Of a DNA stretch of 64,000 nucleotides, positions 42,372 through 64,000 are shown piece by piece. Position 1 is the first letter of the stretch. Each line of letters opens with the position of its first letter. The translations under genes were made by a program, and so were the position numbers. The stretch spans positions 167,136 to 231,135 of the forward strand of contig JAHEDK010000002.1 of NCBI GenBank assembly GCA_024641245.1, given 5' to 3'. This DNA is from Actinomycetes bacterium (GTDB lineage Bacteria; Actinomycetota; Acidimicrobiia; Spongiisociales; JAHEDJ01). The notes under the pieces are model-generated. The model was not told where the DNA came from. It made no database searches and was given only the letters and a program-made list of their open reading frames with translations.

Positions 42372-42372
42372 G

Positions 42373-44534: not shown

Positions 44535-44804
44535 GACAGACGAGTGTACGCACGCAGCTTCGGGCGCCGAAACGCGACCCCGGATAAACACCACCCGTTC
44601 TCTCCCTTTCGCCACCTTTTCAGGGTTTTATGGCGGGTTTCAACCCAGGCAGGGCCCAAGTGCCCCAGGGCGCGAGGACTTTGCGCTGTTGGTGTGTTTC
44701 CGATATACCCGTATCCTCTGCAATGAGAAACGGGGGACCGACCCTGAATCGCCGCCGGAACGGCTCATTCACACGGTGATCCCCATGGAGGAAGGCACAG
44801 CAAA

Positions 44805-49484: not shown

Positions 49485-49625
49485 TCGGGCCCGTTTCCGC
49501 AGGTTAGCTTGTAGCAATTCCCAATCTTGTGCGCCCTTTCACATGGGTCGAATGACCCTACGCGATCTGCGCGCGGATCCGTCATCATGTCGGTACACGA
49601 GTCGAGTAGCTCCCGGGGAGGAAGC

Positions 49626-51796: not shown

Positions 51797-52708
51797 TCAA
51801 GCAGCCTGGTGGATCGCGGCCAGGACTTCCGCAACAACGGAATCCGGCCGGCCAATCAGGTCCCACCAGGTGTATCGAAGCGTTCTCCAGCCGAGTAGCT
51901 CTGTCTGGTTCTGGATCACGCGGTCTCTGCGAAACGTGGGGCGATCCATGTGAAACGCTTCGGAGTCGAGTTCGATCCGCAGGCGGTGCTCGATGAAGGC
52001 GAAGTCGGCCCGGCATACGAACGTCCCGTCAGGGTTTCTGATCTCCACCTGTGGCGTCGGTTGCGGCGTACGGAGCCCCCACGACCGGCGAAACAGATCT
52101 TCCAGTTCGCTCTCGGTGACGCCATCCCAGTGGAGCCGCTGCTCGACGAACGGCCGTATGACCCCGACTCCCCTGCGGCCGCGCCTGGCGACCCGGCCGA
52201 CCAGCGCGGCAACACCTTCGAGCGTAAAGCTCCGAGTTCTCAGACCTCTATCGAGAGCCGACTCGACCAGCCACGGCGCGCTGGCGCCCAGATCGACGAC
52301 CGTTCGGACCGGAGTGGTCACCGGGATACCCGAGACCTCCGCCGAGTCCTCGGGAGCGAGATCGGTCGACTCGTGAACGACGAACTCCTGATGCGCCCGA
52401 TTCCAGCGGGGCATCACTACCTCGATGCGCGGAGGCTTGCGATCAACCAGGCCGTGCAGGAATGCAGCGGTCTGGTGGGAGGCCAGCGCCAGATCGCCTG
52501 CGGTCGTGGTCGCGATGAGCACGGCCTGATGCCAGTCGCGCGGCACGGCGGGGAAAACGTACGTGCGGTAGGCCACCCGCTCGAGCACTCCGCGGGACGT
52601 CAAACCTTTCAACTGATCTGAGCTGAGCCCTGCCTCAATGACAGCAGCACGATCGACTACGCCGTGTCGCAAGGCGGCCCTCTGAGTGAGAATCTGCAAC
52701 GGTGTCAT
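51797..52708 (-). CDS. AbiEi_4-like N-terminal domain plus DUF559 (Vsr-like endonuclease fold) protein
   Basis: N-terminal HTH-like segment (RHGVVDRAAVIEAGLSSDQLKGLTSRGVLERV). The C-terminal segment ADFAFIEHRLRIELDSEAFH...LGWRTLRYTWWDL is typical of DUF559. The start is ATG 52708 or 52720. The longer track extension runs over the palindromic repeats. Confidence 0.75.
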   Translation of the reverse strand: MTPLQILTQRAALRHGVVDRAAVIEAGLSSDQLKGLTSRGVLERVAYRTYVFPAVPRDWHQAVLIATTTAGDLALASHQTAAFLHGLVDRKPPRIEVVMPRWNRAHQEFVVHESTDLAPEDSAEVSGIPVTTPVRTVVDLGASAPWLVESALDRGLRTRSFTLEGVAALVGRVARRGRRGVGVIRPFVEQRLHWDGVTESELEDLFRRSWGLRTPQPTPQVEIRNPDGTFVCRADFAFIEHRLRIELDSEAFHMDRPTFRRDRVIQNQTELLGWRTLRYTWWDLIGRPDSVVAEVLAAIHQAA

Positions 52709-52755
52709 GCCCAACACCATCAAGGTTGGGTGTGACAAATCCCGAACCCAGTGAA

Positions 52756-52800
52756 CTTGCGTCAGAAACGGGCGCCGGCCGCCCCAAACTGACGCAAGAA
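52756..52800. repeat. REP-like palindromic element, copy C1 (CTTGCGTCAG-N23-CTGACGCAAG)
   Basis: 10-bp perfect arms. The spacer contains GGGCG-ccggc-CGCCC. Confidence 0.8.
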
Positions 52801-52824
52801 AGGGATAGGGGCGCCACCTTCTCG

Positions 52825-52871
52825 TTCTTGCGTCAGTGTTCCGAGCAACGGGCCCAGAAGTGACGCAAGAA
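52825..52871. repeat. REP-like palindromic element, copy C2 (TTCTTGCGTCA-N25-TGACGCAAGAA)
   Basis: 11-bp perfect arms. The left flank CTTCTCGTTCTTGCGTCAG is identical to copy A. Confidence 0.85.
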
Positions 52872-52939
52872 TGAGGAGAGACAGAGAAGTGGGGAGCCTT
52901 TCGGCTCCCCACTTCGGGTGTTCGTTAAGCGACTCTTGT

Positions 52940-53935
52940 CTACGGCAGGCGGCCTGCTCCGTGGCAACTCACGCAGAGGGCATCCGGGATGTTCTTCAGC
53001 AAGTACGCCTTGGTAGACGTATGCGGATAGTCGAAGGATGTCCCATCATCGGGATTGCCGTGGCAGCGCGTGCAGCGCGGATGGTTGTTGTGCGTTTCCG
53101 AGTCCACTCTTGGCTCGTGGCACGATCCGCACCACGCATCCGACCCATCCCGTCCGTCCCACACCAGTGGTGCGTTGGCGAACTGGAAGTTCGGGTTGCG
53201 CGACAACAGCTTGTACCCGTAGGCGTACGAAGTGAAGGCATCACCGTCGGAGTCCTCGAGCGTCGCGTAAGCACAGGCAGCGTTGAATCCGTCTCCAAGC
53301 ACCACCGCGCCATCAGCGGCTGCGCACCAATGCCAGACACCTTCGGCCCCGTCGAAATCGAGGGCCAAAGGAGCACCCCTGCTACCAGCGGCAACAGTTG
53401 TGCCCTCATCGGCAGGGTATACCCACTTGTTGATCAATTGGCCGAAGTCACCGTGTGGCGTGTGGCAGGTGCCGCACGACAACGAGCCTTCGACGGCCGA
53501 GTTCGTAGTACGGCCGTCATACCCGAAAATGAACGCACCATCAGGGCTCACCGAAGCCCCCGGCGTGTGTCCGTTCCCCAGGTTGGAGCTGTACACAGCC
53601 CGATCCGAGGCGGTACCCGACGGCGCTGCCGCCGACCAACCAGGTCGCGGACCTGTGGGATCGGCGCCCATATAGCTATGGCAGGTCGCACAGACGGCCT
53701 CGATGCTGGACAACGCCATCAACGCGTAGGCGCCGGCGGCGTCGTGCACGTCGTGACACTGCAGGCAGAAGTCCGTCGAGGCGCTGTAGCCACCGTGGGG
53801 CGACACGTTGCCGTCATAGGGATCTCCTAGTGCTGGTGGCTCCGTCGGCGTCTGCGCGACGGCAGCCGTCATCGGCACCAACAACGCAGCCACCATGCAG
53901 ACAACGAGACCGACGGTTCGTATTCGTCGTCTCAA
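52940..53935 (-). CDS. secreted hexahaem cytochrome c
   Basis: Six CXXCH motifs: CLQCH, CATCH, CGTCH, CGSCH, CTRCH, CVSCH. I prefer TTG 53935, which follows GGAGGAGGG and gives the signal peptide (M)RRRIRTVGLVVCMVAALLVPMTAAVAQ. Confidence 0.8.
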   Translation of the reverse strand: MRRRIRTVGLVVCMVAALLVPMTAAVAQTPTEPPALGDPYDGNVSPHGGYSASTDFCLQCHDVHDAAGAYALMALSSIEAVCATCHSYMGADPTGPRPGWSAAAPSGTASDRAVYSSNLGNGHTPGASVSPDGAFIFGYDGRTTNSAVEGSLSCGTCHTPHGDFGQLINKWVYPADEGTTVAAGSRGAPLALDFDGAEGVWHWCAAADGAVVLGDGFNAACAYATLEDSDGDAFTSYAYGYKLLSRNPNFQFANAPLVWDGRDGSDAWCGSCHEPRVDSETHNNHPRCTRCHGNPDDGTSFDYPHTSTKAYLLKNIPDALCVSCHGAGRLP

Positions 53936-54249
53936 TTCACCCTCCTCCCGATCGGGCGCTAGCCCGACGTCATGGGAGCCGACCGCTCCCTCCAGTCCCT
54001 TTCCAAACCGTTCCCCGTGCCGCCCTGCGACTCGGGGTGCCCAATCAACGATCAGGATAATCAGACCTTTTAGGTCAAAATATGCCGATAGCACTTGGCG
54101 TATTCATCACTCTATGTGTTTGTCGACACGGCGTCAAGTTGGAGAAGGGCCCCATAACGACAGGGCCGTTCGGCCCTATCAACGAGGCACACCGCACTAC
54201 CGAAATCGGCCGGAACAGGTATTATTTATCTCAGGGTGGCGGAGGATAA

Positions 54250-55752
54250 TTGACCAAACTCGTCAAGTTTCGAGTAATGGGTGTATTTCGTCAGCGGATC
54301 GTGCTTGCGACCACGCTGAGCGTTTTCTTCGGCGTTCTCACGTTCCTGCCGGCTGCAGCCGGGCCCGGCCAACCCGCGGACGCAGCAGCAAGTTCGATGC
54401 CCCTCACAATCCTTGCGATGGCGCAGGCAGCTGAGTTCCCGGATCCCCACGGCCTCCTCAACGCCAACAGCAACGGGTGTCTCTCCTGCCACGACACACA
54501 CGACGCGCCCGGGCCGGCGTTGCTGGCAACTGCCACCGAAAAGGAAGCCTGCTACCGGTGTCACGATGGGAGCGGTGCCACGGCCAACATCCGGGCAGCA
54601 TTCGGTGAGTCGATACTCGGGGAGAGTACCCAACGTTCATACCATCCCCTCCCCCACGCGCTCGACGGATACTCGGTAACTTGTGGCGACTGCCACACGC
54701 CGCATCAGGCTCGATCCGAGTTCACGAAGCTCCTGCGTATCAACGACGGTTCCGGCGGCTGGGTCTACTCGCCGACCGACACACCGATTGGCAACACCTA
54801 CTGCTACCGGTGCCACGGCACCGATTCTCCATTCCCCGCACCATTCGGCGATCAGACCACGTTCGAGGGAGGCGTACACCAGGTGCTCGGTGGCGATCCT
54901 CCCTCGGGATCGGGCATCCAGTGCGTGAACTGTCACGACGGCCACGGTTCGGCCTACCCGGGCCTCTCGCAACAAGAGGCCACCTGCTTCACCTGCCACA
55001 ACACGGCAACGCCCAACACCAACCCCGATCTGCCCTTCGACACCACCGAACTCGAGTACGCCTTCACGGCCGTAGCCAACGACTACGACGCCACCGACGC
55101 CGACGGCTTGATTCGCATCTACCACCACCCCATCGGCGACGATGAACAAGACGGCGGGAGCCGTCGGGTCGAGTGCGCCTCATGCCACAACGCTCATCGA
55201 GTTGACCGCGACTACTCAGGAACTGGGAGCAAGATTTCGAATCCGGGAGACACCCGGGGGGACGTCGCCATTACGTGGACGGACGGCACGTTCACCCGGG
55301 GCACCATCTCACAGTTTTGCGTTGCGTGTCACCAGGACCCGGCCACGACCGCTCCAATCAACGCCGGCACCTGGGTCCCCTACGACATACGGCTCACCGA
55401 CGACTCAGCCGTCCTCAACGGGAGCGGCGGACCCCACGACACTTTCGACGCAACGTACTATTTCACCAACGAACGGTCTGACCACGGTGCGGGCGCCCAA
55501 CTCGCCTGCACCGCCTGCCACGACCCGCATGGCTCATCGAACGCCTACATGTTGCGCGAGAATGTGATCAGCCCTGGCGGAGCGGGTGTGCCCGCCGGCA
55601 CCGTCGGCCCTCGGGTGACCGGATTCGTCGATGAGGACACCCCAGAACAACAGACAATCCTCTCGGGCTTCTGTGGCAGCTGCCACGGCGATCACCACAC
55701 CCCCAACAGGCTCTGCACACAGTGCCACAATCACGGATCGCCGCGGTTCTGA
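54250..55752 (+). CDS. secreted undecahaem cytochrome c
   Basis: Eleven CXXCH motifs. The signal peptide is FRQRIVLATTLSVFFGVLTFLPAAA. The TTG start is preceded by GGCGGAGGA. Confidence 0.85.
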   Translation: MTKLVKFRVMGVFRQRIVLATTLSVFFGVLTFLPAAAGPGQPADAAASSMPLTILAMAQAAEFPDPHGLLNANSNGCLSCHDTHDAPGPALLATATEKEACYRCHDGSGATANIRAAFGESILGESTQRSYHPLPHALDGYSVTCGDCHTPHQARSEFTKLLRINDGSGGWVYSPTDTPIGNTYCYRCHGTDSPFPAPFGDQTTFEGGVHQVLGGDPPSGSGIQCVNCHDGHGSAYPGLSQQEATCFTCHNTATPNTNPDLPFDTTELEYAFTAVANDYDATDADGLIRIYHHPIGDDEQDGGSRRVECASCHNAHRVDRDYSGTGSKISNPGDTRGDVAITWTDGTFTRGTISQFCVACHQDPATTAPINAGTWVPYDIRLTDDSAVLNGSGGPHDTFDATYYFTNERSDHGAGAQLACTACHDPHGSSNAYMLRENVISPGGAGVPAGTVGPRVTGFVDEDTPEQQTILSGFCGSCHGDHHTPNRLCTQCHNHGSPRF

Positions 55753-55936
55753 TGACAGACCCGACCTCCATCACCCGGCGAATGCCATTGGGCCCTACAG
55801 GACACAATTCGACCGCGGGTACCGTCGCGTTAGGACCCGCGGGTGCTGTCAGGAACCGCGGATTGGGCCACATGGGAGAGAGGCGAGGGCCCGCAATGGT
55901 TTGTGAATGCCGTGAGTGGTCGAGAGGGGGCCCACG

Positions 55937-56362
55937 GTGTTGATCACCCGCGAGGTCGACTACGCCGTGCGCTGTGTTCTCGACGTAGCCCGCACCGGGC
56001 ACACCTCCACCGGAGCAGTCGCCGAACGGGCCGGGATACCCCCATCGATCCTCGGGCGCATCGTGGCGGCTGTATCGAAAGCCGGCATACTCACTACCAG
56101 ACGAGGAGTCAAAGGCGGCATCGATCTTGCGCGCGATCCAAGCGAGATCAGCCTGCTTGACGTCATAGAGGCGGTGCAAGGTCCGCTCTTCGTCAACATC
56201 TGCTGCGAGCATCCCGAAACCTGTGACGCCGCTACCAACTGTCCGATCCGACCCGTCTGCGAGGACGCCTTCGACGAGCTGAGACGGGTCTTCTCGGTGA
56301 CCTACGACACATTGCTCAACGGCGGCCACGTTCCTCTCCGCCCGTTCGTCCAAGAGGAGTAG
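55937..56362 (+). CDS. Rrf2 family transcriptional regulator with CX5CX5C(X5C) Fe-S-type cysteine cluster
   Basis: VLITREVDYAVRCVLDVA...winged HTH, then CCEHPETCDAATNCPIRPVC, spaced as in IscR/NsrR-type cluster ligands. Confidence 0.85.
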   Translation: MLITREVDYAVRCVLDVARTGHTSTGAVAERAGIPPSILGRIVAAVSKAGILTTRRGVKGGIDLARDPSEISLLDVIEAVQGPLFVNICCEHPETCDAATNCPIRPVCEDAFDELRRVFSVTYDTLLNGGHVPLRPFVQEE

Positions 56363-56423
56363 GCGTGTATTACCTGGGGACCATTGCGGCCTATAGCGCA
56401 CCCCATCTCGTCGGGTTTTCGCG

Positions 56424-57296
56424 ATGAAGCGACGAACCCAGCTTTACGCGCTCGGCGGACTCCTCATTGTTGTTTCGTTTGCCGCCTGGCGGTTGACGGA
56501 CGATCCGGCAATCGAACCACCGCTGATCCCGATCGCAGCAACCGCCGTGGTCGCAGACTCCGACTTCGACGCGTGCCTCGAGTGCCACGACGACATCGAG
56601 CAATCCCTCCAAGCCGGACTGGTGCAACTCATCGGATTTCGACACGAAGAGCACTTCTCGAATTCCGGCGACGTCGGTTGCGGCAACTGCCACGGTCTCG
56701 ACACGCACGATCGCACCCCGCCGCAGGCACCGACCATGGAGGATTGTTTTTCGTGCCACCTCGACGCCGGGCCGGCTGCCGAGTTGCCGTGTCTCCGCTG
56801 TCACGACAACGCCACTGTGCCACCGCCGCAGAGCCACTTCACCTCAGAGTGGCGCGACGTTCACGGCTCCGGCGCCCTGCTCAGCCAGTCGCTGTGCGAG
56901 ACCTGCCACTCGCGACAAGATTTCTGCACGGCGTGCCACGGTGTCGATATTCCGCATCCAGACGGATGGACCGGCTATCCACACGCACGTGCGACGTTCG
57001 ATTCGGGCATCGAGTCGTGTGCACGCTGCCACGAGCGCGGTCCGGAACTGACGGCTCGCGACGAATGTGACGGCTGCCACCATCCGCAGAACCCCGCAGA
57101 ACCCATCTGGAAGGATGCTCACCCAGAGGTGGTCCGAAGCCAGGGTGGCTCGACGTGCTTCGAGTGCCACGACCCCAACACATGCGCCACATGTCACACA
57201 TCGGGAGTTGAAGACTTCTCCGCCGATCTCAACCGGCTCGAAGTGCCCGGCCCACCAAAGGTCACGGAGTCACCGCCCGAGGACGGTGACTCGTGA
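56424..57296 (+). CDS. membrane-anchored decahaem cytochrome c
   Basis: N-terminal TM helix (LYALGGLLIVVSFAAW) and ten CXXCH motifs in 290 aa. Contains the repeated module CxxCH-x3-4-CxxCHG.DIPHPD.W. Confidence 0.85.
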   Translation: MKRRTQLYALGGLLIVVSFAAWRLTDDPAIEPPLIPIAATAVVADSDFDACLECHDDIEQSLQAGLVQLIGFRHEEHFSNSGDVGCGNCHGLDTHDRTPPQAPTMEDCFSCHLDAGPAAELPCLRCHDNATVPPPQSHFTSEWRDVHGSGALLSQSLCETCHSRQDFCTACHGVDIPHPDGWTGYPHARATFDSGIESCARCHERGPELTARDECDGCHHPQNPAEPIWKDAHPEVVRSQGGSTCFECHDPNTCATCHTSGVEDFSADLNRLEVPGPPKVTESPPEDGDS

Positions 57297-58309
57297 GTCT
57301 GTCCCCGGTACCCATCGGACCGGCGGGACGCTCGCCCGGAATCCCATTCCCGGCACCACCGACCGCCCTCCGGCGATTCTCAACGCAACCACCGCCACCT
57401 CCCGACGGCGAGCCATCTCGCCGTCCCGAGCTTCGTGCCCTCGGTGACGGGGCGGGCTCGGGAAGGGACAACAGGGCATCGGAGCCACGCGGGTCTCGCT
57501 GGCTTCGGCGCCTCGTCATCATCGTCGCGACCGTCGGCGCCCTCGTATTCGTCGCCTCCTGGAGCTACGCCTCGTCATCGCGCAACATGTGCGGAAGCTG
57601 TCATAGCGTCTCGGCGGCTGCAGAATCCGCCGGTGATTCGGTGCACGCAGATATCCCGTGCCTCGCCTGCCACAGGCAAGCGGGCATCGTCGGAGCGTTC
57701 ACCTACCTCCCTGTGCTGCTGCGCGAGTCTGTTCACGAGCTGACTGGACTCTCTATCGCCGAAGGAGTGCTCGACCCCGTCGGATGTGGTTCTTGTCACT
57801 CTTTCCTATCCGACGCGGCGGCGCGAGGCGATCATCCGGACGAGACAGCAGAATGCTCGTCCTGCCACGGCAACGTAGCCCACCCGGGAGCCGGGACGGC
57901 TCCGGAAGGGGACGGCCATCCGTCCGGGTTCTTCGCTTTCCACGGCCGGGATTCCGTCGCTTCGCCCGGATCATGCGCAGAATGCCATAAGAACGACTTC
58001 TGCTCGGCCTGCCACTTCCGCACGGAGTATCCGCATCCGGAAACCTGGACGTCGCTCCATGGTCCGGCGTCAATCGAAGGCGGCCCCGCTGCTTGTGTGA
58101 TGTGCCACGAGCCCACGTACTGTTCGAGCTGTCACGGCGCCGACATCCCCCATCCGGACAACTGGTTCGAGATCCATCATCGGGCAACCGACCCGGCAGT
58201 CGGGTCGGCCTGCCTATCGTGCCATGCAGCCTCCGAGTGCTCCTCCTGCCACGTCCGGCACTCAGTTCACAACGAGCAAGGGCTCTACCAGTGGGACCTC
58301 AAGCCATGA
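57293..58309 (+). CDS. membrane-anchored decahaem cytochrome c with Pro/Arg-rich cytoplasmic N-terminus (NapC/NirT-like layout)
   Basis: 4-bp overlap with the upstream gene. The TM helix LVIIVATVGALVFVASW is followed almost immediately by the first haem motif (SSSRNMCGSCHS). Ten CXXCH motifs in total. Confidence 0.85.
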   Translation: MSLSPVPIGPAGRSPGIPFPAPPTALRRFSTQPPPPPDGEPSRRPELRALGDGAGSGRDNRASEPRGSRWLRRLVIIVATVGALVFVASWSYASSSRNMCGSCHSVSAAAESAGDSVHADIPCLACHRQAGIVGAFTYLPVLLRESVHELTGLSIAEGVLDPVGCGSCHSFLSDAAARGDHPDETAECSSCHGNVAHPGAGTAPEGDGHPSGFFAFHGRDSVASPGSCAECHKNDFCSACHFRTEYPHPETWTSLHGPASIEGGPAACVMCHEPTYCSSCHGADIPHPDNWFEIHHRATDPAVGSACLSCHAASECSSCHVRHSVHNEQGLYQWDLKP

Positions 58310-59157
58310 AAGGCATCCGGGTGCTCATGACTGTGGTCCTCACTCTCGTACTCGCTGAGGTGACGCTCGTGGCCTTCGTGACCTTCTCCGAGGATGCCCG
58401 GGGCGCGGTCACCGACGCGTGGGCCAAGACCGTGAACGCGTGGGCCGGCTCGGAGGAGCGGGCAGGCAATTTCGAGCTGCTCCTGTCGTCTGCAGACGAG
58501 TTCGCTGCTGAATGGGTCCAGCCATTGTGGAGCGCGCCGGAGGCGGCTCCGGCCGGCACCGGATTCTCCGAATGCGTGACCTGCCACACGGATTACGCCG
58601 AACGTCGCCTGTTCACCGGCGTCTTCATGAATCATCCACTGCATTCGGAGTTGGGAATCGCGTGCGCCGAATGCCACACCGACGTTGCGCATCCCCTCCC
58701 TCTCCCTCCGGCCGAAGAGACTTGTGCAGGGTGCCACAATCAAGTCGAACGAGACGGCCCGGCCTCCGACTGTAGCTATTGCCACAAACCTGGCTCGCTG
58801 GCGCACTATCAGTCACTTGGCGTTCCCGACGGAGCCGCCAACTGCAGCACCTGCCACCTTCCGGATTCGTTCGGGCACACCGATCAGCACGCCTTGACGG
58901 TTACTCCAAGCTTCGATGGAACCGATTCCGCCGTCTGCCTCAACTGCCATCAGGCGGCCGCCTGCGCTCGATGCCATGATTCCTCCCACCCGGCCGACTG
59001 GGTATCCCTTCACGGCGCAGAGGTCCAGGACGCCGGTACCGGCGCCGGCTCCTGCGCGGCGTGTCATTCGACAAACTGGTGCGCTGGAGCCTGCCACCTG
59101 AGTGGAACTCTCCAGGGCGGCAGGCTGCTCCCCCTACCGATCGGAGACGATGACTGA
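58306..59157 (+). CDS. membrane-anchored octahaem cytochrome c (plus one CX3CH motif)
   Basis: ATGA overlap, with ATG 58306 inside the longer track ORF. N-terminal TM helix. Eight CXXCH motifs and a C-terminal CAGACH. Confidence 0.85.
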   Translation: MKGIRVLMTVVLTLVLAEVTLVAFVTFSEDARGAVTDAWAKTVNAWAGSEERAGNFELLLSSADEFAAEWVQPLWSAPEAAPAGTGFSECVTCHTDYAERRLFTGVFMNHPLHSELGIACAECHTDVAHPLPLPPAEETCAGCHNQVERDGPASDCSYCHKPGSLAHYQSLGVPDGAANCSTCHLPDSFGHTDQHALTVTPSFDGTDSAVCLNCHQAAACARCHDSSHPADWVSLHGAEVQDAGTGAGSCAACHSTNWCAGACHLSGTLQGGRLLPLPIGDDD

Positions 59158-59819
59158 TGGCGAATCGACGAACCTTGCTCGTGCTCGTGGGCACGATCGG
59201 TGCGGTGGCAGCTGCTGCGGCCATCTGGATCGTAGGCGGCGCCGATCCGGATCCACTCATCGCCGAGGTGGATGGGATTCCGATCCGGCAATCACAAGCG
59301 GACTCGCGGATTGAAGGCATCGCCTCGATTCACGGCGACATCACGACGACGCTCGGTAGCGAGTGGAGAGCCACCGTGCTGCAGTCCCTCGTCGATGACG
59401 TGATCGTTCAGATCGAAGCCGACCGGAGATCCCTCGAACCGACCGATGCCGATCTCGAACAAGCAGTCGCCGATACCAAGGCAATGGTGGGTACCGATGC
59501 GGACTGGGAGATCTGGCTTACGGACCAGGGGCTCGACGACGAGGAAGTTGAGCGGCGCCTGACCACCCAGATCAGGACCAACCGTGTGTACGACGCGGTC
59601 ACCGCCGATGTGACTATCGCGCGCACCGACCTCGAGGCCTACTACGAGGCGAACCTCGACCAGTTCACCGTCGACGGCGCCGTCAGAGAACTCTCCGAGG
59701 TCGAAGAGCAAATCAAGGTGGCCGTTGAAAGCATGATGCGAGATCGCGTCTACGCCGAGTGGATCGACGCCCGCCGGGCCGAAGTCATCCTGGAGGTGGT
59801 GCACGATGACTGGCGATAG
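59157..59819 (+). CDS. membrane-anchored SurA-N-terminal-like chaperone domain protein (no PPIase domain seen)
   Basis: TGATG overlap with the octahaem gene. A TM anchor is followed by IAEVDGIPIRQSQADSRIEGI..., resembling SurA_N/PrsA N-domains. The call is tentative. Confidence 0.5.
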   Translation: MANRRTLLVLVGTIGAVAAAAAIWIVGGADPDPLIAEVDGIPIRQSQADSRIEGIASIHGDITTTLGSEWRATVLQSLVDDVIVQIEADRRSLEPTDADLEQAVADTKAMVGTDADWEIWLTDQGLDDEEVERRLTTQIRTNRVYDAVTADVTIARTDLEAYYEANLDQFTVDGAVRELSEVEEQIKVAVESMMRDRVYAEWIDARRAEVILEVVHDDWR

Positions 59820-60480
59820 GCAACCCGCCGACAGGGAGCAGAATGTCAACGTCCTCCTGGTCATTGTCGGCTTGTTGACGCTCCTCGTGGTCGGGCTCGG
59901 TGCAGCCGTTGTCTTCATCCAACTCAACTCCGATCCGGTCCCCCAGACGGTTGCCGAACGGGACCTCAATCTCTGGCTGCGCCTCGCCGACGACAATCCT
60001 GATGCCGTATGGGCACAGGTCGGCCTGGGGCAAGCACACCTGGCAGGCCAGGATATGGAGGCCGCCCGGGCTGCCTTCGCAGCGGCCCTGGCCATCGATC
60101 CGGCTTCGCCGGAAGCACTGTTCCAGATGGGGCTCCTCGTCCGAGCAGAGGATCCGAATCTGGCCGTCGATTACCTTCGGCGAGCCGTCGAAGCCGCAAC
60201 GGGAGCAGACAAGGCGCGCCCGAACCTGGCGCTCGGAGATCTTCTGATGGAGCGAGGCGACTGGGAAGCGGCGCGGCTGGCCTATGAGTCGTCCATAGCC
60301 AATCTCCCCTTCCTATTGCCCGCGCACCTGGGACTTGCCCGGTCCCTCGAAGCGCTCGGTGACTCCGACGGTGCCCTTGCCGCCTACCTCCAGGCCTCGG
60401 CCTTCGATCCGACGGATCCCGAGATCAAGGAGGCGATCACTCGCCTCGGAGGCACCCAACCCGAGACAACGAACCCGTAG
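59806..60480 (+). CDS. membrane-anchored TPR repeat protein
   Basis: TM helix followed by TPR-like repeats (AQVGLGQAHLAGQDMEAARAAFAAALAIDP..., LALGDLLMERGDWEAARLAYESSI..., HLGLARSLEALGDSDGALAAYLQASAFDP). Confidence 0.7.
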   Translation: MTGDRQPADREQNVNVLLVIVGLLTLLVVGLGAAVVFIQLNSDPVPQTVAERDLNLWLRLADDNPDAVWAQVGLGQAHLAGQDMEAARAAFAAALAIDPASPEALFQMGLLVRAEDPNLAVDYLRRAVEAATGADKARPNLALGDLLMERGDWEAARLAYESSIANLPFLLPAHLGLARSLEALGDSDGALAAYLQASAFDPTDPEIKEAITRLGGTQPETTNP

Positions 60481-60488
60481 GAGCACCG

Positions 60489-61655
60489 ATGGACAGACCA
60501 CCACCAGGACCGATTGCGCACCAGCCACCGCCGTCTCCAGCGCCGGAATCGGGCAATGCCACCCAGACCACTCGCCGCCTAATGATCGGCATGATCATCG
60601 TGCTGTCACTCGCTGCCATCGGCCTGCTCATCCTCCTCCTGTTGCTCCTTCGATCCGGGGAGGAGCCCCAGTCGCTGGCGATGCCCGACGATTGCCCGCT
60701 CGACATCTCCCGCTCGGTATACGGATACGGAGCGGAGTTGGATCAGTTGCTCAACAAGCCGCTGGCCGTCACATTCGACGGCAGTGAGAACCTCTGGGTC
60801 TCCGATACCGGGAACGGGCGGGTCCTGGCACTCGACACCGATGGGAACCTTCTCAGAATCATCGGCACCGAGGAGGGGGCCGGCCGAATGTTCAGCCCGT
60901 ATGGCCTCGCCTTCGATGAGACCTACCAACGGCTCTACGTTGCCGACTGGACAGCCCGATTCGTGTTCATCTATTCGCCGGACGGGCGGTACATCGAGCG
61001 CATACCCGCAGATGACCAGGATTTGACGATCTTCGGCGAAGCCGGGTTCACGCCGTTCCATGTCGAGGTATGGGGGGCGCAGATAATCGTCTCCAGCAAC
61101 GATGGGCTGTATTTCTTCGACCGGGCGGGGCATGTCACCGACCACTGGGGCCAACGTGGGGCTGAGGCCGGGGAGTTTGCGTTCCCCGATGCCTTCGACA
61201 TCGACCGCACCGCCGGAACGTTCTACGTCGCGGACACTCTCAATCGTCGGGTCGTCGCACTCGATTCCGCAGGCGAAGTCCTGTGGATCTCCGGCCGGCC
61301 AGACCAGGCAGGGGCAATCACCGGGTTCTGGCAGCTCCCGCGGTCTATCACCGTCGGGCAGGACGGAAATGTGTACGTCGTCGACACATTCAGGGCGCAG
61401 GAGAAGTGCTCCGGGATGGGACACGTTGTGGTGCTCGATCCCGGCGGCGAACTCGTCTCCGAATTTGGAGCGGCCGGCAGCCAGGAATGGGCGTTCAGTT
61501 TCCCGGAGAAGCTCGCAATCGGTCCAAACGGTACATTCGGGCTCGCTGACCGAGAAAAGGGTCGCGTGGTGGTGTTCGACGTTGGACAGCTTCCACCGGC
61601 CGACGAGTCCGAGGCGGACAAGTACCTGCAATCGTTCACCCGCTTCGATGATTGA
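60489..61655 (+). CDS. membrane-anchored NHL-repeat beta-propeller protein
   Basis: TM helix followed by about six NHL-like repeats (PLAVTFDGSENLWVSDTGNGRVLALD, PYGLAFDETYQRLYVADW, PDAFDIDRTAGTFYVADTLNRRVVALD, PRSITVGQDGNVYVVDT, PEKLAIGPNGTFGLADREKGRVVVFD). Confidence 0.8.
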   Translation: MDRPPPGPIAHQPPPSPAPESGNATQTTRRLMIGMIIVLSLAAIGLLILLLLLLRSGEEPQSLAMPDDCPLDISRSVYGYGAELDQLLNKPLAVTFDGSENLWVSDTGNGRVLALDTDGNLLRIIGTEEGAGRMFSPYGLAFDETYQRLYVADWTARFVFIYSPDGRYIERIPADDQDLTIFGEAGFTPFHVEVWGAQIIVSSNDGLYFFDRAGHVTDHWGQRGAEAGEFAFPDAFDIDRTAGTFYVADTLNRRVVALDSAGEVLWISGRPDQAGAITGFWQLPRSITVGQDGNVYVVDTFRAQEKCSGMGHVVVLDPGGELVSEFGAAGSQEWAFSFPEKLAIGPNGTFGLADREKGRVVVFDVGQLPPADESEADKYLQSFTRFDD

Positions 61656-61799
61656 GGGTGACGGACCCGGGCCGAAGGCCCAATCATCAAAGGTGTTCCT
61701 GACCCTTTAGTAAGTGACTCAGGTCCCTGGAGCGGCCGGCAGGTCATGCGATAGCTTGACGAGGAGAGATCGGACCAACAACCGATCCCGGAGAGATCG

Positions 61800-62909
61800 A
61801 TGCGCACCAAGCTGCAAGGGTTCGCTCTGTGGGGGATGCTGTTCTTTGCCGTCGTCGGACTCACGGCCCTGTCGGCCGACCCGGCCTCAGCGCAGGATTC
61901 CGCCGACTCGGAAGTCAACAACTACTGCCTGGGATGCCACGAATCCGGGAACATCATTCTCACGTTCCCGTCGGGGGAGATGCTTCCCGCCGTGGTGCCG
62001 CGTACCGTTTTCGACGCCTCTATCCACGGTCAGGTCGGCCTCACCTGCATCGCCTGTCATACCGATATCGGGCAGTACCCACACGACCCCATGTCGGCCG
62101 TCACCCGGCGAGACCTGGCGATCGAGTTGTACACCACGTGCTTCAACTGCCACGAGAGCGAATACACCGACACGCTCGACAACATGCACACCGAAGCTCT
62201 CGCCGGCGGCAACCGGGAAGCCGCCGTCTGCACCGACTGCCACGGCGCTCACAACGTCACCCACCCCAGCGTCGACACAACGGCCATCCCGCGCACCTGC
62301 CGGAACTGCCACTCCGAGATCTACGACCTGTACGCCGGCAGCATCCACGGTGCCGCCCTACTCGAACACGACAATCAGGACGTTCCAAGCTGCACGAGTT
62401 GTCACGGCGTCCACAGTGTTGAAGGACCCTCGCACTCGCAATTCCACCTGTTCTCACCGAAAATCTGCGAGGACTGCCACGCCGATGAAGCTCTCATGGG
62501 CAAGTACGGGATCAGCACGGCGGTCTTCGACACCTACGTAGCCGATTTCCACGGCACGACGGTCATGCTCTTCGAGGAACTGGCGCCCGACCAGAAGACC
62601 AACTCGCCGGTCTGTATCGACTGCCACGGCGTGCACAACATCCTGGCCGCCAACGAGGTCGACTCGACCGTCTACAAGGAGAACCTGCTCCTCACCTGTC
62701 AGCGGTGCCACCCAGACGCCACCGCCAACTTCCCCGACTCGTGGATGAAGCACTACCAACCGACCTCCGACCAGGCGGTCCTTGTCTGGCTGGTCAATTG
62801 GTTCTACCGACTCGTCATCCCCGGCGTCGTGGGGGGCATGCTCGTCTGGGTGACGATCGACGGCATTCGCCACTTGCAGCATCGACGGAAGGCGGCCGAG
62901 AGTGTCTGA
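61800..62909 (+). CDS. nonahaem cytochrome c with signal peptide and C-terminal TM anchor
   Basis: Nine CXXCH motifs: CLGCH, CIACH, CFNCH, CTDCH, CRNCH, CTSCH, CEDCH, CIDCH, CQRCH. The C-terminal helix is LVIPGVVGGMLVWVTIDGI. Confidence 0.85.
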   Translation: MRTKLQGFALWGMLFFAVVGLTALSADPASAQDSADSEVNNYCLGCHESGNIILTFPSGEMLPAVVPRTVFDASIHGQVGLTCIACHTDIGQYPHDPMSAVTRRDLAIELYTTCFNCHESEYTDTLDNMHTEALAGGNREAAVCTDCHGAHNVTHPSVDTTAIPRTCRNCHSEIYDLYAGSIHGAALLEHDNQDVPSCTSCHGVHSVEGPSHSQFHLFSPKICEDCHADEALMGKYGISTAVFDTYVADFHGTTVMLFEELAPDQKTNSPVCIDCHGVHNILAANEVDSTVYKENLLLTCQRCHPDATANFPDSWMKHYQPTSDQAVLVWLVNWFYRLVIPGVVGGMLVWVTIDGIRHLQHRRKAAESV

Positions 62910-64000
62910 CGTCCTTGAGCGCGCAGCAGTCGACGTCGAACTGGACGATCGGATACTGCGTTTTGGAAAGGCGGATCGCATCGAGCATGCGGTCCAGGTA
63001 ATCAGCTTCGCCGGCCTCGGCCTCACTGGGCTGATCCAGAAGTTCTTCGAGTCGGCGATTTCTCAGTGGTGGATTGAGTTCCTTGGTGGGTTGCCACAGG
63101 TGCGCGTCATTCATCGCTGGCTGGCGACCATCCTCATGCTCGCCGTCATCTGGCACTTCGGTAAAGCCGGATATCGCACGTACGTCGAACGGCGACCGCG
63201 AGCCATGGTCCCGAGCAAGCGCGACTGGATTGCCATCAAGGAATCGATCGCGGTGCTGGCGGGACGGCGTCACGAACCTGTGAAACAAGGTCGATTCACG
63301 TTCGCGGAGAAGGTCGAGTACTGGTCGTTCGTCTGGGGCACCGTCTTGATGATCGCCACCGGCTATATGCTGTGGAACCCGATTTCCACCGCCAAGTTCC
63401 TCCCCGGTGATTTCATCCCGGCCGCCAAAGCGGCACACGGTGGAGAAGCGATCCTGGCTGTGCTGGCCATCCTCGTCTGGCACATCTACCACGTGCACAT
63501 CAAGCATTTCAACAAGAGCATCTTCACCGGCTACATCAGCCGGGCAGAGATGATCGAAGAACATGGCCTCGAACTCGAGGCGATGGAGGCGGGCAAGACC
63601 GGTCCGCAGGCGACACAAGCCGAGATTGTGGAGCGGCGGCGCAAGTTCCTTCCCGCCTTCGGTGTTGTGGCGGTCCTCATGATGGCCGGCATCTACTGGT
63701 TCGTGAGCTTCGAGGATACGTCGATCGCCACCATCGAGCCCATCGAAAACGTGGTGGCATACAAGCCACTGCCTCCTGAACAGCAGAGCGGCCCGGCGCT
63801 TTCTGGTGACAATCCGCTCCCGACCATCGTCATCCCCGACACCACCCTCCCCACCGAGACGACGGTGCCGCAGGGTGAAGTCACATGGGCCACGGTTGGG
63901 CCCGTTCTGGCCGATAGCTGCGGTACGTGCCATTCGGCCTCGAACTCCATGGGCGGGCTCGACCTTTCGTCGTACGAGGGGGCGCTGGGTTCCGAGGGAG
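62902..64000 (+). CDS. FdnI/HydC-type dihaem cytochrome b fused to a C-terminal PSCyt1-like cytochrome c domain; 3' end outside the window; absent from the ORF track
   Basis: My own translation of frame 1 from GTG 62902, which overlaps the nonahaem stop by 8 nt: VSDVLERAAVDVELDDRILRFGKADRIEHAVQVISFAGLGLTGLIQKF...IHRWLATILMLAVIWHF...FTFAEKVEYWSFVWGTVLMIATGYMLW...AAHGGEAILAVLAILVWHIYHVHI...VGPVLADSCGTCHSASNSMGGLDLSSYEGAL. There is no stop up to base 64000. Confidence 0.8.
   Translation, partial: MSDVLERAAVDVELDDRILRFGKADRIEHAVQVISFAGLGLTGLIQKFFESAISQWWIEFLGGLPQVRVIHRWLATILMLAVIWHFGKAGYRTYVERRPRAMVPSKRDWIAIKESIAVLAGRRHEPVKQGRFTFAEKVEYWSFVWGTVLMIATGYMLWNPISTAKFLPGDFIPAAKAAHGGEAILAVLAILVWHIYHVHIKHFNKSIFTGYISRAEMIEEHGLELEAMEAGKTGPQATQAEIVERRRKFLPAFGVVAVLMMAGIYWFVSFEDTSIATIEPIENVVAYKPLPPEQQSGPALSGDNPLPTIVIPDTTLPTETTVPQGEVTWATVGPVLADSCGTCHSASNSMGGLDLSSYEGALGSEG

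What the first reader, a model, noticed from the sequence alone, without database searches (positions are those of the whole stretch)
56424..61655. Six translationally coupled single-pass membrane proteins: three haem-dense cytochromes followed by SurA-like, TPR and NHL-propeller proteins
Seen directly: the gene junctions overlap or nearly abut. The coordinates are 57293/57296, 58306/58309, 59155/59157 and 59806/59819, with an 8-nt gap before 60489. All six products start with one TM helix, so their domains are predicted to face outward.

The three cytochromes carry 10, 10 and 8(+1) haems in 290, 338 and 283 aa, about one haem per 30 residues. They share a module: CxxCH-x3-4-CxxCHG(V/A)DIPHPD(G/N)W...H.RAT. 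Examples are CETCHSRQDFCTACHGVDIPHPDGW and CVMCHEPTYCSSCHGADIPHPDNW, so they are paralogues.

The middle cytochrome places its first haem motif directly after the TM helix, as NapC/NirT/CymA-type quinol dehydrogenases do. It also has a 75-aa Pro/Arg-rich cytoplasmic head.

The inference is a membrane-tethered haem conduit with dedicated folding or scaffolding partners (chaperone-like, TPR and six-bladed propeller proteins). The role of the propeller is unknown. It could be substrate or mineral binding, cell-wall anchoring, or an enzymatic function.
Basis: partly seen in the sequence, partly recalled or inferred. Interest (0 to 1): 0.65.

Follow-up and report, generated by a model that had tools for sequence, protein, structure and literature searches.

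The report
Conserved actinobacterial membrane-anchored multihaem cytochrome operon
Six tightly packed genes encode three haem-packed, membrane-anchored cytochromes plus a chaperone-like, a TPR and a propeller protein, and this set recurs in the same order in dozens of uncultured Actinomycetota, making it a likely but untested route for moving respiratory electrons out of the cell.

Summary
Six + strand genes (56424-61655) overlap or nearly abut. They encode cytochromes with 10, 10 and 9 haem sites (the ninth is CX3CH), a SurA-N-type chaperone without a PPIase domain, a TPR protein and a six-bladed NHL propeller. Each has an N-terminal hydrophobic anchor.

In about 80 related loci from Actinomycetota MAGs and metagenomes, SurA follows C3 in 47 of 49 informative cases, and TPR follows SurA in 31 of 35.

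The six genes are the core of a larger conserved unit: [ccm]-Rrf2-HemA-NapC-like hexahaem-[Rieske/cyt b]-C1-(small TM protein)-C2-C3-SurA-TPR-NHL-[nonahaem + cyt b561 | ccmA...].

The C2 family profile matches the quinol dehydrogenase NrfH over its TM helix and all four haems (E=4e-10). C1 is a colinear paralogue that lacks the membrane-proximal haem.

Best reading: a quinol-linked, membrane-tethered 29-haem module of an actinobacterial extracellular electron-transfer chain, with a PpiD-like holdase and a TPR/NHL pair for maturation or scaffolding. Function and direction of electron flow are inferred only. Similar MHC + NHL + TPR (+ PPIase) clusters are described in other phyla, so this is a new variant of a known kind.

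The parts
55916..56362 (+). Rrf2-family regulator with a Cys96/97/103/109/115 cluster; conserved immediately upstream of the cassette
   Evidence: PF02082 at 95.8 bits. Cysteine positions. My HMM annotation places Rrf2 upstream of the cassette in more than 25 related loci.
56424..57296 (+). C1: decahaem c-type cytochrome, 290 aa, with an N-terminal 17-aa hydrophobic anchor. Colinear paralogue of C2 that lacks C2's membrane-proximal haem.
   Evidence: 10 CxxCH. 9 invariant distal His plus invariant Met105. hhalign against the C2 family gives probability 99.6%, E=4e-24. Orthologues in L009/L020 carry a lipobox instead of a helix.
57293..58309 (+). C2: decahaem, 338 aa. Pro/Arg-rich cytoplasmic head (1-73), TM helix (74-96), NrfH/NapC-like tetrahaem module with its first CxxCH at residue 100, then three dihaem modules. 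Candidate quinol dehydrogenase.
   Evidence: Family profile hits NrfH 2j7a_C at E=4e-10 over NrfH residues 5-155. PF03264 scores 21.7 bits against a cut-off of 24.1 for this protein, but is matched by 6 of 9 relatives. 11 invariant non-motif His.
58306..59157 (+). C3: nonahaem (8 CxxCH plus an invariant CX2-3CH), 283 aa. About 25-aa TM anchor with a conserved mid-membrane Glu18, then a 60-aa haem-free linker.
   Evidence: Best solved-structure sequence match is the ACIII ActA pentahaem 6lod_A, E=1.2e-8, over residues 105-147.
59157..59819 (+). TM-anchored SurA/PrsA-type chaperone core (N and C segments) without a parvulin PPIase domain, 220 aa
   Evidence: PF13624 at 33.6 bits, above the 27.2 cut-off, and no Rotamase hit. 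Family profile hits LIC12922 3nrk at 2e-8, plus PrsA, the SurA N-domain and trigger factor. It is the next recognised gene after C3 in 47 of 49 informative loci.
59806..60480 (+). TM-anchored TPR protein, 224 aa
   Evidence: Several TPR Pfam families pass their cut-offs. The CcmH/CycH TPR family scores only 24 bits against a cut-off of 42. TPR follows SurA in 31 of 35 informative loci.
60489..61655 (+). NHL six-bladed beta-propeller, 388 aa, with a 30-aa Pro-rich cytoplasmic tail and a 24-aa TM helix preceded by TRR
   Evidence: PF01436 at 59.5 bits. Sequence matches to solved TRIM, PknD and Pizza NHL propellers over residues 75-364. Six blades can be read directly in the sequence. No invariant His, Cys or Met among 11 orthologues.
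61800..62909 (+). Neighbour, next transcription unit: nonahaem cytochrome with a C-terminal TM helix (C4)
   Evidence: 9 CxxCH and a C-terminal hydrophobic segment. The same family flanks the cassette in L003, L010/L046, L020, L021, L023, L064 and L074.
62854..64000 (+). Neighbour: cytochrome b561 / Ni_hydr_CYTB membrane protein, running off the window end. With C4 it forms a CbcL-like split pair.
   Evidence: PF01292 at 47.3 bits. Co-occurs with C4 in L020, L021, L023, L074, L083 and L084.

Best explanation
The six genes form one operon. It encodes the membrane-proximal section of a multihaem-cytochrome electron-transfer chain on the outer face of the cytoplasmic membrane. The host is an uncultured actinobacterium, probably an Acidimicrobiia.

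Proposed roles (inferred unless marked otherwise):
- C2 is the entry or exit point to the quinone pool. Shown: its TM helix plus first four haems form an NrfH/NapC-type quinol dehydrogenase module by sequence. Six further haems extend away from the membrane.
- C1 and C3 are anchored beside C2 and widen or lengthen the haem path. Shown: C1 is a colinear paralogue that has lost the quinol-proximal haem, and C3 is a nonahaem. Together the three carry 29 haems. They would pass electrons to or from the larger lipoprotein and secreted cytochromes encoded nearby, and hence through the wall.
- The SurA-type protein is a PPIase-less, TM-anchored holdase. It probably keeps these very haem-dense apoproteins competent for System I (Ccm) haem attachment as they leave the Sec translocon, by analogy with PpiD.
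- The TPR and NHL proteins behave as a pair in the gene-content data. They most likely scaffold or position the complex rather than catalyse anything, because the propeller has no conserved cofactor ligands.
- An Fe-S-type Rrf2 regulator upstream probably controls the unit.

The direction of electron flow (quinol oxidation for Fe(III), Mn or electrode reduction, versus electron uptake) cannot be decided from sequence.
For: - Gene structure and motifs.
- Paralogy and colinearity of C1 and C2.
- C2 to NrfH over the TM helix and four haems: E=4e-10. PF03264 is matched by 6 of 9 C2 relatives. CxxCHxM, the NrfH haem-1 Met, is present in 7 of 9 relatives.
- Nearly complete bis-His (plus Met) ligand sets suit electron transfer rather than catalysis.
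- Anchors are conserved in all six families, with a lipobox substitution in C1 of L009/L020.
- The chaperone core lacks a parvulin domain.
- The NHL family has no invariant His, Cys or Met.
- Synteny: order C1-(X124)-C2-C3-SurA-TPR-NHL in about 80 loci. SurA is next after C3 in 47 of 49 cases and TPR next after SurA in 31 of 35.
- Conserved flanks are HemA, a NapC-like hexahaem, Rieske/cyt b and ccm genes. In L009 and L020 the ccmA start overlaps the NHL stop.
- The window itself carries System I ccm, two Rieske/cyt b complexes and five more multihaem cytochromes.
- Precedents: in Thermincola a membrane-anchored decahaem (ImdcA) with an uncleaved signal peptide is proposed to oxidise quinol (PMC7911101). 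In Dethiobacter, NHL and TPR proteins sit in EET clusters and are proposed to mediate complex assembly (PMC10376724).
Against: - There is no experimental or expression data; every relative is a MAG or metagenome contig.
- The window's own C2 falls just below the Pfam NapC/NirT cut-off (21.7 against 24.1 bits). It has Val where NrfH and most relatives have the haem-1 Met.
- NrfH's Lys82/Asp89 region is gapped in the alignment.
- Most related cassettes also carry a separate NapC-like hexahaem and/or a Rieske/cyt b complex, so C2 need not be the quinol site there.
- All three cytochromes are tethered, so they cannot simply stack end to end across a thick wall.
- Two C3 haems lack a conserved intrachain distal ligand, which leaves room for a catalytic or inter-subunit site.
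- SurA-TPR-NHL are missing in cis in the L003 group and L064. TPR-NHL are missing in L011, L053/L063 and L071, so they are not strictly required next to the cytochromes.
- AlphaFold2 models were too poor to test the folds.
Confidence: 0.6

Rival explanations
1. A soluble-substrate respiratory enzyme on the NrfHA pattern. C2 is the NrfH-like quinol dehydrogenase, and C3 (or C1) is a catalytic multihaem reductase or oxidase for a small molecule such as nitrite, hydroxylamine, sulfite or tetrathionate. It would not be an extracellular electron conduit.
For: C2's N-terminal module is homologous to NrfH, which partners a catalytic multihaem enzyme. C3 has 9 haem sites but only 6 invariant distal His plus Met108, so up to two haems could be five-coordinate. 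The last C3 site is a variable CX2-3CH.
Against: No CxxCK or other known catalytic haem signature is present. Pfam, NCBIfam and solved-structure searches give no match to NrfA, HAO, Otr, MccA or cytochrome c552 for C1 or C3. Best matches are electron-transfer cytochromes: c7-type domains, GSU1996 and ACIII ActA. The neighbours are further large multihaem cytochromes, not substrate-specific enzymes.
Confidence: 0.12
2. SurA-TPR-NHL are general accessory factors of the actinobacterial System I cytochrome c maturation machinery. They would be a holdase, a CcmI/NrfG-like apocytochrome adaptor and a propeller. They sit next to C1-C3 only because all cytochrome genes cluster, and are not dedicated partners of these three cytochromes.
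For: In L009 and L020 ccmABCDEFH follows NHL directly, with overlapping stop and start codons. ccm genes lie just upstream in L013-L017, L025, L053, L062, L073 and L075. There are weak TPR_CcmH_CycH hits (24-25.6 bits). HemA is adjacent in most loci.
Against: The trio's position is fixed relative to C3, not to ccm, which may lie upstream, downstream or about 8 kb away as in this window. The window already has a CcmI-like TPR gene after ccmH, at 47247-48080. The TPR_CcmH_CycH score is far below its 42-bit cut-off. Lineages lacking TPR-NHL or the whole trio at this site still keep C1-C3.
Confidence: 0.15
3. One of the cytochromes polymerises into an extracellular or wall-spanning haem filament. 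The chaperone, TPR and propeller proteins would then be its assembly system, analogous to the machinery reported for Geobacter OmcS nanowires (recalled from memory; not found in the paper library).
For: The accessory categories are the same: a prolyl-isomerase-family chaperone, a beta-propeller and TPR. The missing intrachain ligands for two C3 haems could be supplied by a neighbouring subunit, as in known cytochrome filaments. In Thermincola, the wall cytochrome CwcA is modelled as an OmcS-like polymer (PMC7911101).
Against: C1, C2 and C3 all keep conserved membrane anchors. Solved-structure sequence searches show no similarity to OmcS, OmcE or OmcZ. No usable structural model was obtained. 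The literature comparison could not be verified here.
Confidence: 0.08

Closest known systems
NrfH / NapC / NirT / CymA membrane-anchored tetrahaem quinol dehydrogenases (PF03264; structure 2j7a chain C)
   Same: C2 has one N-terminal TM helix followed within about 4 residues by the first CxxCH. Its four N-terminal haem motifs align with the four of NrfH (profile E=4e-10). Most C2 relatives carry NrfH's CxxCHxM.
   Different: C2 carries six extra haems (three dihaem modules) and, in this lineage, a 73-aa Pro/Arg-rich cytoplasmic head. The window protein has Val instead of the haem-1 Met and scores below the Pfam cut-off. The Lys82/Asp89 segment of NrfH is not alignable.
Thermincola potens/ferriacetica Gram-positive EET chain: ImdcA, PdcA, CwcA, OcwA (PMC7911101, PMC6703420)
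   Same: A decahaem held in the cytoplasmic membrane by an uncleaved N-terminal segment is proposed to oxidise menaquinol and feed further multihaem cytochromes across a wall that has no outer membrane.
   Different: No sequence relationship was detected. Here three paralogous anchored cytochromes are encoded together with chaperone, TPR and NHL genes. No OmcS-like wall cytochrome or OcwA-like terminal reductase was identified in the cassette. The phylum is Actinomycetota, not Bacillota.
EET gene clusters combining multihaem cytochromes with NHL, TPR and/or peptidyl-prolyl isomerase genes. Examples: Dethiobacter alkaliphilus clusters (PMC10376724), 'Ca. Tenderia electrophaga' Uet cluster (bioRxiv 10.1101/2022.05.06.490989), Desulfovibrio ferrophilus DFE_0451/0463 (PMC9769857), SEEP-SRB1 operon (as cited in PMC12246660).
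   Same: The same mix of gene categories: a CymA/NapC-like cytochrome, several multihaem cytochromes, NHL propeller(s), a TPR protein and a PPIase-family chaperone. The same untested proposal applies, that the NHL and TPR proteins organise the complex.
   Different: Those in diderm bacteria include an outer-membrane beta-barrel or porin and a true PPIase domain. Here every product is anchored in the cytoplasmic membrane, the chaperone lacks the PPIase domain, and the gene order is fixed across a different phylum.
PpiD-YfgM, the TM-anchored SurA-like chaperone and TM-anchored TPR protein at the E. coli SecYEG translocon (own knowledge, not tested here)
   Same: An adjacent pair of single-pass N-in/C-out proteins, one with a SurA-N-type chaperone domain and one with a TPR domain, both facing the extracytoplasmic side.
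   Different: PpiD keeps an inactive parvulin domain. No YfgM-type Pfam family was matched. The association here is with cytochrome and ccm genes. The resemblance is one of architecture only.
Geobacter CbcL, Cbc and Rieske/cyt b-linked multihaem quinol oxidoreductases
   Same: The flanking nonahaem + cyt b561 pair (61800-64000) and the Rieske/cyt b genes that precede C1 in many related loci play the same formal role as the Cbc complexes. They are alternative quinone-pool couplings for EET.
   Different: These are neighbours, not part of the six genes. In CbcL the haem c and b domains are fused, whereas here they are separate genes.

Membership tests
NapC/NirT/NrfH quinol dehydrogenase (C2) | Single N-terminal TM helix with the first CxxCH immediately after it | tested here: met
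   TM at 74-96 and first CxxCH at residue 100. Conserved in 13 orthologues.
NapC/NirT/NrfH quinol dehydrogenase (C2) | Four haem motifs colinear with those of a solved member | tested here: met
   The A2 profile aligns to NrfH 2j7a_C residues 5-155, covering all four CxxCH, with E=4e-10.
NapC/NirT/NrfH quinol dehydrogenase (C2) | Passes the Pfam PF03264 gathering score | tested here: not met
   21.7 bits against a cut-off of 24.1 for the window protein. 6 of 9 relatives match at E<=0.01, best 6.6e-6.
NapC/NirT/NrfH quinol dehydrogenase (C2) | NrfH-type CxxCHxM (Met ligand of haem 1) and the Lys82/Asp89 quinol-site residues | tested here: inconclusive
   The window has CGSCHSV (Val), while 7 of 9 relatives have Met. 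The Lys82-Asp89 segment falls in an alignment gap.
NapC/NirT/NrfH quinol dehydrogenase (C2) | Quinol oxidation or quinone reduction activity | not testable with these tools
   Needs the purified holoprotein.
SurA/PrsA/PpiD periplasmic chaperones (gene 4) | SurA N-terminal chaperone domain | tested here: met
   PF13624 at 33.6 bits, above 27.2. Profile hits to LIC12922, PrsA, the SurA N-domain and trigger factor.
SurA/PrsA/PpiD periplasmic chaperones (gene 4) | Parvulin-type PPIase domain | tested here: not met
   No Rotamase family at E<=0.01. The 220 aa are filled by the anchor plus the N and C chaperone segments.
CcmI/CycH/NrfG apocytochrome-binding TPR proteins (gene 5) | Match to the CcmH/CycH TPR family above its cut-off | tested here: not met
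   PF23914 at 24 bits against a cut-off of 42. The solved-structure profile search returns only generic TPR proteins.
NHL-repeat six-bladed beta-propeller (gene 6) | NHL repeats forming a six-bladed propeller | tested here: met
   PF01436 at 59.5 bits. Matches to six-bladed TRIM, PknD and Pizza6 chains over residues 75-364. Six repeats are readable in the sequence. No structural model was made.
Porin-cytochrome / Uet-type EET clusters of diderm bacteria | Outer-membrane beta-barrel gene next to the cytochromes | tested here: not met
   All six cassette genes and the conserved flanking genes are assigned to other families. None is a beta-barrel.
Cytochrome nanowire families (OmcS/OmcE/OmcZ) | Sequence or fold similarity to a filament-forming cytochrome | tested here: not met
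   No such chain appears among the sequence hits to solved structures for C1, C2 or C3. Fold comparison was impossible because model pLDDT was 42-47.

The most novel reading that the evidence does not exclude
The cassette is the core of a previously undescribed, phylum-wide actinobacterial respiratory supercomplex for extracellular electron exchange. A Rieske/cyt b or NapC-type quinone module would feed three co-anchored paralogous cytochromes (29 haems). Some haems might be ligated across subunits, and a conserved intramembrane Glu in C3 might hold the TM bundle together. The complex would be built by its own extracytoplasmic assembly line: a PPIase-less PpiD-like holdase plus a TPR-NHL pair coupled to System I Ccm. 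This would be a monoderm counterpart of the nanowire and porin-cytochrome assembly systems of Proteobacteria.
Probability: 0.3. Interest if true: 0.75.

Novelty: new variant of a known kind. Interest (0 to 1): 0.55.

Why it matters
Multihaem-cytochrome electron export is well worked out for Shewanella and Geobacter, and partly for a few Firmicutes. Surveys report almost no recognisable EET genes in Actinobacteria and suspect a search bias against Gram-positive systems (bioRxiv 10.1101/2022.03.26.485925).

This cassette, with its rigidly conserved neighbourhood in dozens of sediment and other environmental Actinomycetota contigs, gives a concrete marker set for finding such organisms. It also defines a set of proteins to express and test.

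It is also a clean natural case in which a chaperone core, a TPR protein and an NHL propeller travel with very haem-dense cytochromes and with the Ccm machinery. That makes the long-standing question of what NHL and TPR proteins do in EET clusters directly testable.

Tried and rejected
- AlphaFold2 on C2 (9-sequence alignment) and C1 (8 sequences) gave mean pLDDT 47 and 42. I did not run fold searches, because the matches would be meaningless.
I used the C2 alignment instead.
- Literature searches for the Geobacter OmcS companion cluster found nothing in the held library. That comparison rests on memory only.
- The promoter/terminator consensus scan of 55700-62000 found nothing above shuffle expectation and no internal terminator on the + strand. 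A GGGCCGAAGGCCC stem after the NHL stop has no T-run.
- A search for an Rrf2 operator palindrome between 55740 and 56440 gave only weak, unconvincing inverted repeats.
- An apparent TPR-NHL fusion in L016 is just a missing stop codon between two complete genes. It would invert the propeller's topology, so I treat it as an assembly error or recent lesion, not as fusion evidence.
- No NapC-like hexahaem (NNT6) or X124 homologue exists in this window.
The Acidimicrobiia assignment rests on the nearest named relatives.
- I considered a catalytic role for the propeller. I rejected it as the lead idea because no His, Cys or Met is invariant.

Full report
**What is in the sequence.**

Six ORFs lie head to tail on the + strand between 56424 and 61655.
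- GTGA at 57293-57296.
- ATGA at 58306-58309.
- TGATG at 59155-59159.
- A 14-nt overlap at 59806-59819.
- An 8-nt gap before 60489, with an AGGAG Shine-Dalgarno sequence in it.

GC3 is 0.71-0.76 in all six genes, against a window GC of 0.63. No promoter-like or terminator-like site above shuffle expectation interrupts the run. A 144-nt gap separates the last gene from the next gene at 61800.

The products are as follows.

| Gene | Length | Features |
|---|---|---|
| C1 | 290 aa | 10 CxxCH |
| C2 | 338 aa | 10 CxxCH |
| C3 | 283 aa | 8 CxxCH plus CAGACH |
| Gene 4 | 220 aa | SurA_N_3 domain, no parvulin domain |
| Gene 5 | 224 aa | TPR |
| Gene 6 | 388 aa | NHL-repeat propeller |

Outside the anchors there is one haem site per 24-28 residues.

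The three cytochromes are true paralogues. Pairwise identity is 26-31%, with E-values of 1e-8 to 1e-18 after composition correction. The C1 and C2 family profiles align over 242 columns at 99.6% probability.

That alignment shows C1 is colinear with C2, including the anchor. However, C1 lacks C2's first, membrane-proximal haem motif. C1's first motif aligns with C2's second.

The extra site in C3 is real. Cys259, Cys263 and His264 are invariant, and four orthologues (L002, L003, L009, L020) have a plain CxxCH there.

Distal-ligand bookkeeping across orthologues:

| Protein | Haems | Invariant distal ligands |
|---|---|---|
| C1 | 10 | 9 His plus Met105 |
| C2 | 10 | 11 His |
| C3 | 9 | 6 His, plus Met108 in 10 of 12 orthologues |

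So these are essentially low-spin electron-transfer cytochromes. Up to two haems in C3 have no conserved sixth ligand within the chain.

**Anchors.**

Across 9-17 orthologues per family, the N-terminal hydrophobic stretch is conserved in position and length:
- C2: 18-23 aa.
- C3: about 25 aa, with a conserved Glu in the middle (12 of 12 orthologues once the distant L018 is excluded).
- SurA-like: 21-28 aa.
- TPR: at least 23 aa.
- NHL: 21-26 aa.

Each stretch is preceded by Arg/Lys and followed directly by charged residues, with no conserved small-x-small cleavage site.

C1 has the shortest stretch (17-23 aa). In the L009/L020 clade it is replaced by a lipoprotein box (AAGC, VAGC). So tethering of C1 is conserved even though the means differ.

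No dedicated topology predictor was available.

C2's 73-residue Pro/Arg-rich head (16 Pro, 12 Arg) is present in the closest relatives. In others it is absent, or replaced by an acidic Glu/Pro tail.

**Conservation.**

Word-indexed searches of 5.8 billion proteins found only 11, 5 and 14 relatives of C1, the chaperone and C2 respectively. The nearest named ones are from Acidimicrobiia and Actinomycetota MAGs.

Contigs carrying these relatives repeat the gene order. A scan of GTDB species genomes found nine loci. The close relatives all come from Actinomycetota MAGs, including one Solirubrobacterales; the two most distant hits are a Coriobacteriaceae and a Desulfatiglandales MAG. A metagenome scan added 66 more loci.

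I annotated all loci with HMMs built from the families. The order is almost invariant:

[ccmE/A/B/C/F] - Rrf2 - HemA - NapC-like hexahaem - [Rieske - cyt b - cyt b SUIV/monohaem c] - C1 (sometimes duplicated) - a 110-125-aa single-TM protein (X124) - C2 - C3 - SurA - TPR - NHL - [nonahaem + cyt b561, or ccmA...].

The counts are:
- SurA is the next recognised gene after C3 in 47 of 49 loci where a next gene can be seen.
- TPR follows SurA in 31 of 35 loci.
- 24 of 30 loci with at least 2.6 kb downstream of C3 carry SurA-TPR-NHL in order.
- Several loci are near-identical duplicates, so the number of independent lineages is lower, roughly 50.

The exceptions are informative:
- L011, L053/L063 and L071 have SurA but no TPR or NHL.
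- The Coriobacteriaceae locus L018 has TPR-NHL next to C2- and C3-like genes but no SurA.
- In the L003 group and L064, the nonahaem C4 follows C3 directly.

TPR and NHL therefore behave as a pair. None of the three accessory genes is strictly obligatory in cis.

The window belongs to a subtype (with L002, L003, L007, L008, L010/L046) in which Rrf2 directly precedes C1. In this subtype HemA, the hexahaem and X124 are absent from the operon.

**What the parts are.**

*C2.* The family profile matches the solved quinol dehydrogenase NrfH (2j7a chain C) over its whole length, that is, the TM helix and all four haem motifs (E=4e-10). Six of nine family members hit Pfam NapC/NirT. The window protein just misses the cut-off at 21.7 against 24.1 bits. 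Seven of nine relatives have NrfH's CxxCHxM; the window protein has Val at that position.

*C3.* The best match among solved structures is the TM-anchored pentahaem ActA of alternative complex III.

*C1.* The best match is the Geobacter dodecahaem GSU1996.

*Chaperone.* The family profile hits LIC12922, PrsA foldases, the SurA N-domain and the trigger-factor C-domain. Both the N-terminal segment and a C-terminal segment align, with no parvulin domain between them. It is therefore the chaperone core alone, on a TM anchor.

*TPR protein.* It is generic. The CcmH/CycH TPR family scores 24 bits against a cut-off of 42.

*Propeller.* It matches six-bladed NHL domains from TRIM proteins, M. tuberculosis PknD and the designed Pizza proteins. 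Among 11 orthologues it has no invariant His, Cys or Met. Its invariant residues are Gly, Asp, Arg and aromatics typical of the fold. That argues for binding or scaffolding rather than redox chemistry.

**Context in the window.**

The first 33 kb hold ordinary chromosomal genes: MgtE, GlnE, NAD synthase and DAHP synthase. From about 34 kb onward the window is a cytochrome island:
- Two Rieske/cyt b complexes. One has its subunit IV fused to seven monohaem c domains.
- A full System I ccm set: ccmABCE on the - strand, and ccmF, ccmH, a CcmI-like TPR gene and a thioredoxin on the + strand.
- Four further multihaem cytochromes with 5, 10, 6 and 11 CxxCH motifs, including a 723-aa lipoprotein.
- The Rrf2 gene and the six-gene cassette.
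- A nonahaem with a C-terminal TM helix, followed by a cyt b561-type membrane protein.

The components that flank the cassette directly in other genomes are all present here, only more spread out.

**How it most likely works.**

*Shown:*
- The operon structure.
- The haem counts and ligand sets.
- Paralogy of the three cytochromes.
- Homology of C2 to NrfH.
- Conservation of the anchors.
- The chaperone-core architecture.
- The absence of conserved cofactor ligands in the propeller.
- The synteny with haem synthesis, ccm, Rieske/cyt b and NapC-like genes.

*Inferred:*
- C2 exchanges electrons with the menaquinone pool through its membrane-proximal haem.
- C1 and C3 sit beside it as a hetero-oligomer carrying 29 haems. 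They relay electrons to the larger lipoprotein and secreted cytochromes and hence through the envelope.
- The TM-anchored chaperone core holds the very haem-dense apoproteins for Ccm as they emerge from Sec. This is an architectural analogy to PpiD, with the neighbouring TM-anchored TPR protein recalling YfgM (own knowledge, not tested).
- TPR and NHL act together to position or stabilise the complex.

The closest functional precedent is Thermincola. There the decahaem ImdcA keeps its signal peptide as an anchor and is proposed to oxidise quinol (PMC7911101).

The direction of electron flow is open. The Rieske/cyt b linkage and a His/Met haem in C1 fit electron uptake as well as export.

**Rivals.**

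1. An NrfHA-like soluble-substrate enzyme. It is suggested by the NrfH homology and the two unligated C3 haems. It lacks any catalytic haem signature and any match to known catalytic multihaem families.
2. The trio as general Ccm accessories. It is suggested by ccmA overlapping the NHL stop in L009 and L020. However, the trio tracks C3 rather than ccm, and the window has its own CcmI-like gene.
3. A filament-forming cytochrome with its assembly system. The anchors and the lack of similarity to known filament cytochromes argue against it. I could not test the fold.

**Comparison with what is known, and novelty.**

Clusters combining a CymA/NapC-like cytochrome, several multihaem cytochromes, NHL and TPR proteins and sometimes a PPIase are already described:
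- Dethiobacter (PMC10376724).
- 'Ca. Tenderia'.
- Desulfovibrio ferrophilus.
- SEEP-SRB1.

In those papers too, the NHL and TPR proteins are only proposed to organise the complexes.

What is new here is the lineage (Actinomycetota), the fixed architecture, the fact that every product is anchored in the cytoplasmic membrane, the PPIase-less chaperone, and the tight linkage to HemA, System I ccm and Rieske/cyt b. I found no description of this cassette in the searchable library. One survey explicitly notes the apparent lack of EET genes in Actinobacteria and suspects a search bias.

I rate it a new variant of a known kind, of moderate interest.

**Limits.**
- There are no expression or biochemical data.
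- The AlphaFold2 models were unusable, with pLDDT of 42-47.
- The envelope type of these lineages is unknown.
- The HMM-based synteny table uses my own family models and stop-to-stop ORFs. It also includes some redundant contigs.

Noticed in passing
window 61800-62909 and 62854-64000: A nonahaem cytochrome with a C-terminal TM helix is followed by, and overlaps, a cyt b561/Ni_hydr_CYTB membrane protein. Together they look like a split CbcL-type quinol oxidoreductase. The same pair flanks the cassette in L020, L021, L023 and L074 and appears in L083/L084; the nonahaem alone is seen in L003, L010/L046 and L064.
   Followed up: partly
window 55916-56362: The Rrf2 regulator has a Cys96/97/103/109/115 cluster, a likely Fe-S sensor. 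An Rrf2 gene sits upstream of the cassette in more than 25 related loci, usually followed by hemA (glutamyl-tRNA reductase). No convincing operator palindrome was found.
   Followed up: partly
window 58306-59157 (C3 residues 6-28): The C3 anchor has a Glu (E18) in the middle of the membrane-spanning segment, conserved in 12 of 12 orthologues once the distant L018 is excluded. This suggests a specific helix-helix contact or a protonatable site. No partner basic residue was identified.
   Followed up: no
window 56424-59157: Haem and ligand bookkeeping: C1 has 10 haems with 9 His plus Met105, C2 has 10 haems with 11 His, and C3 has 9 haems with 6 His plus Met108. Two C3 haems therefore lack a conserved intrachain sixth ligand, while C2 has a spare His. 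This is compatible with cross-subunit ligation or with five-coordinate haems.
   Followed up: partly
window 60489-60650 (NHL N-terminus) and orthologues: A conserved (S/T)-R-R-(L/M)-L motif lies directly before the NHL anchor helix in nearly all orthologues. It could be a Tat-type twin-arginine signal-anchor, as in Rieske proteins, or simply positive-inside charges. The helix is unusually hydrophobic for a Tat substrate.
   Followed up: no
window 41949-48685: A complete System I cytochrome c maturation set is present: ccmE, ccmC, ccmB and ccmA on the - strand, and ccmF, ccmH, a CcmI-like TPR gene and a thioredoxin on the + strand. To my knowledge Actinomycetota usually use System II. In L009 and L020 the ccmA start overlaps the NHL stop codon.
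   Followed up: partly
window 34102-37669 and 39536-41825: There are two Rieske/cyt b6-type complexes. In the first, subunit IV is fused to seven cbb3-type monohaem c domains (866 aa, 8 CxxCH). A GltD-like FAD/NAD(P) oxidoreductase with 4Fe-4S domains (37812-39608) lies between the two complexes.
   Followed up: no
window 51797-52912 (- strand): An AbiEi-antitoxin / REase_MTES_1575-like gene sits inside the cytochrome island, between two multihaem cytochrome genes. It may be a remnant of a mobile or defence element.
   Followed up: no
window 49527-51698: A 723-aa decahaem has a lipobox (LAAC) and an obvious two-fold internal repeat. Cytochromes with 11, 6 and 5 CxxCH motifs lie at 54250-55752, 52940-54094 (- strand) and 48795-49484. 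These are candidate downstream partners of the cassette.
   Followed up: no
L001 3230-3604; L013, L015-L017 and about 35 metagenome loci: A conserved 110-125-aa single-TM protein with no Pfam match (X124) lies between C1 and C2 in most related cassettes. It is absent from this window's subtype.
   Followed up: partly
L016 13714-15702: The TPR and NHL genes lie in one frame with no stop codon between them. Both are complete, and a fusion would invert the propeller's topology. This is probably an assembly error rather than a real fusion.
   Followed up: yes
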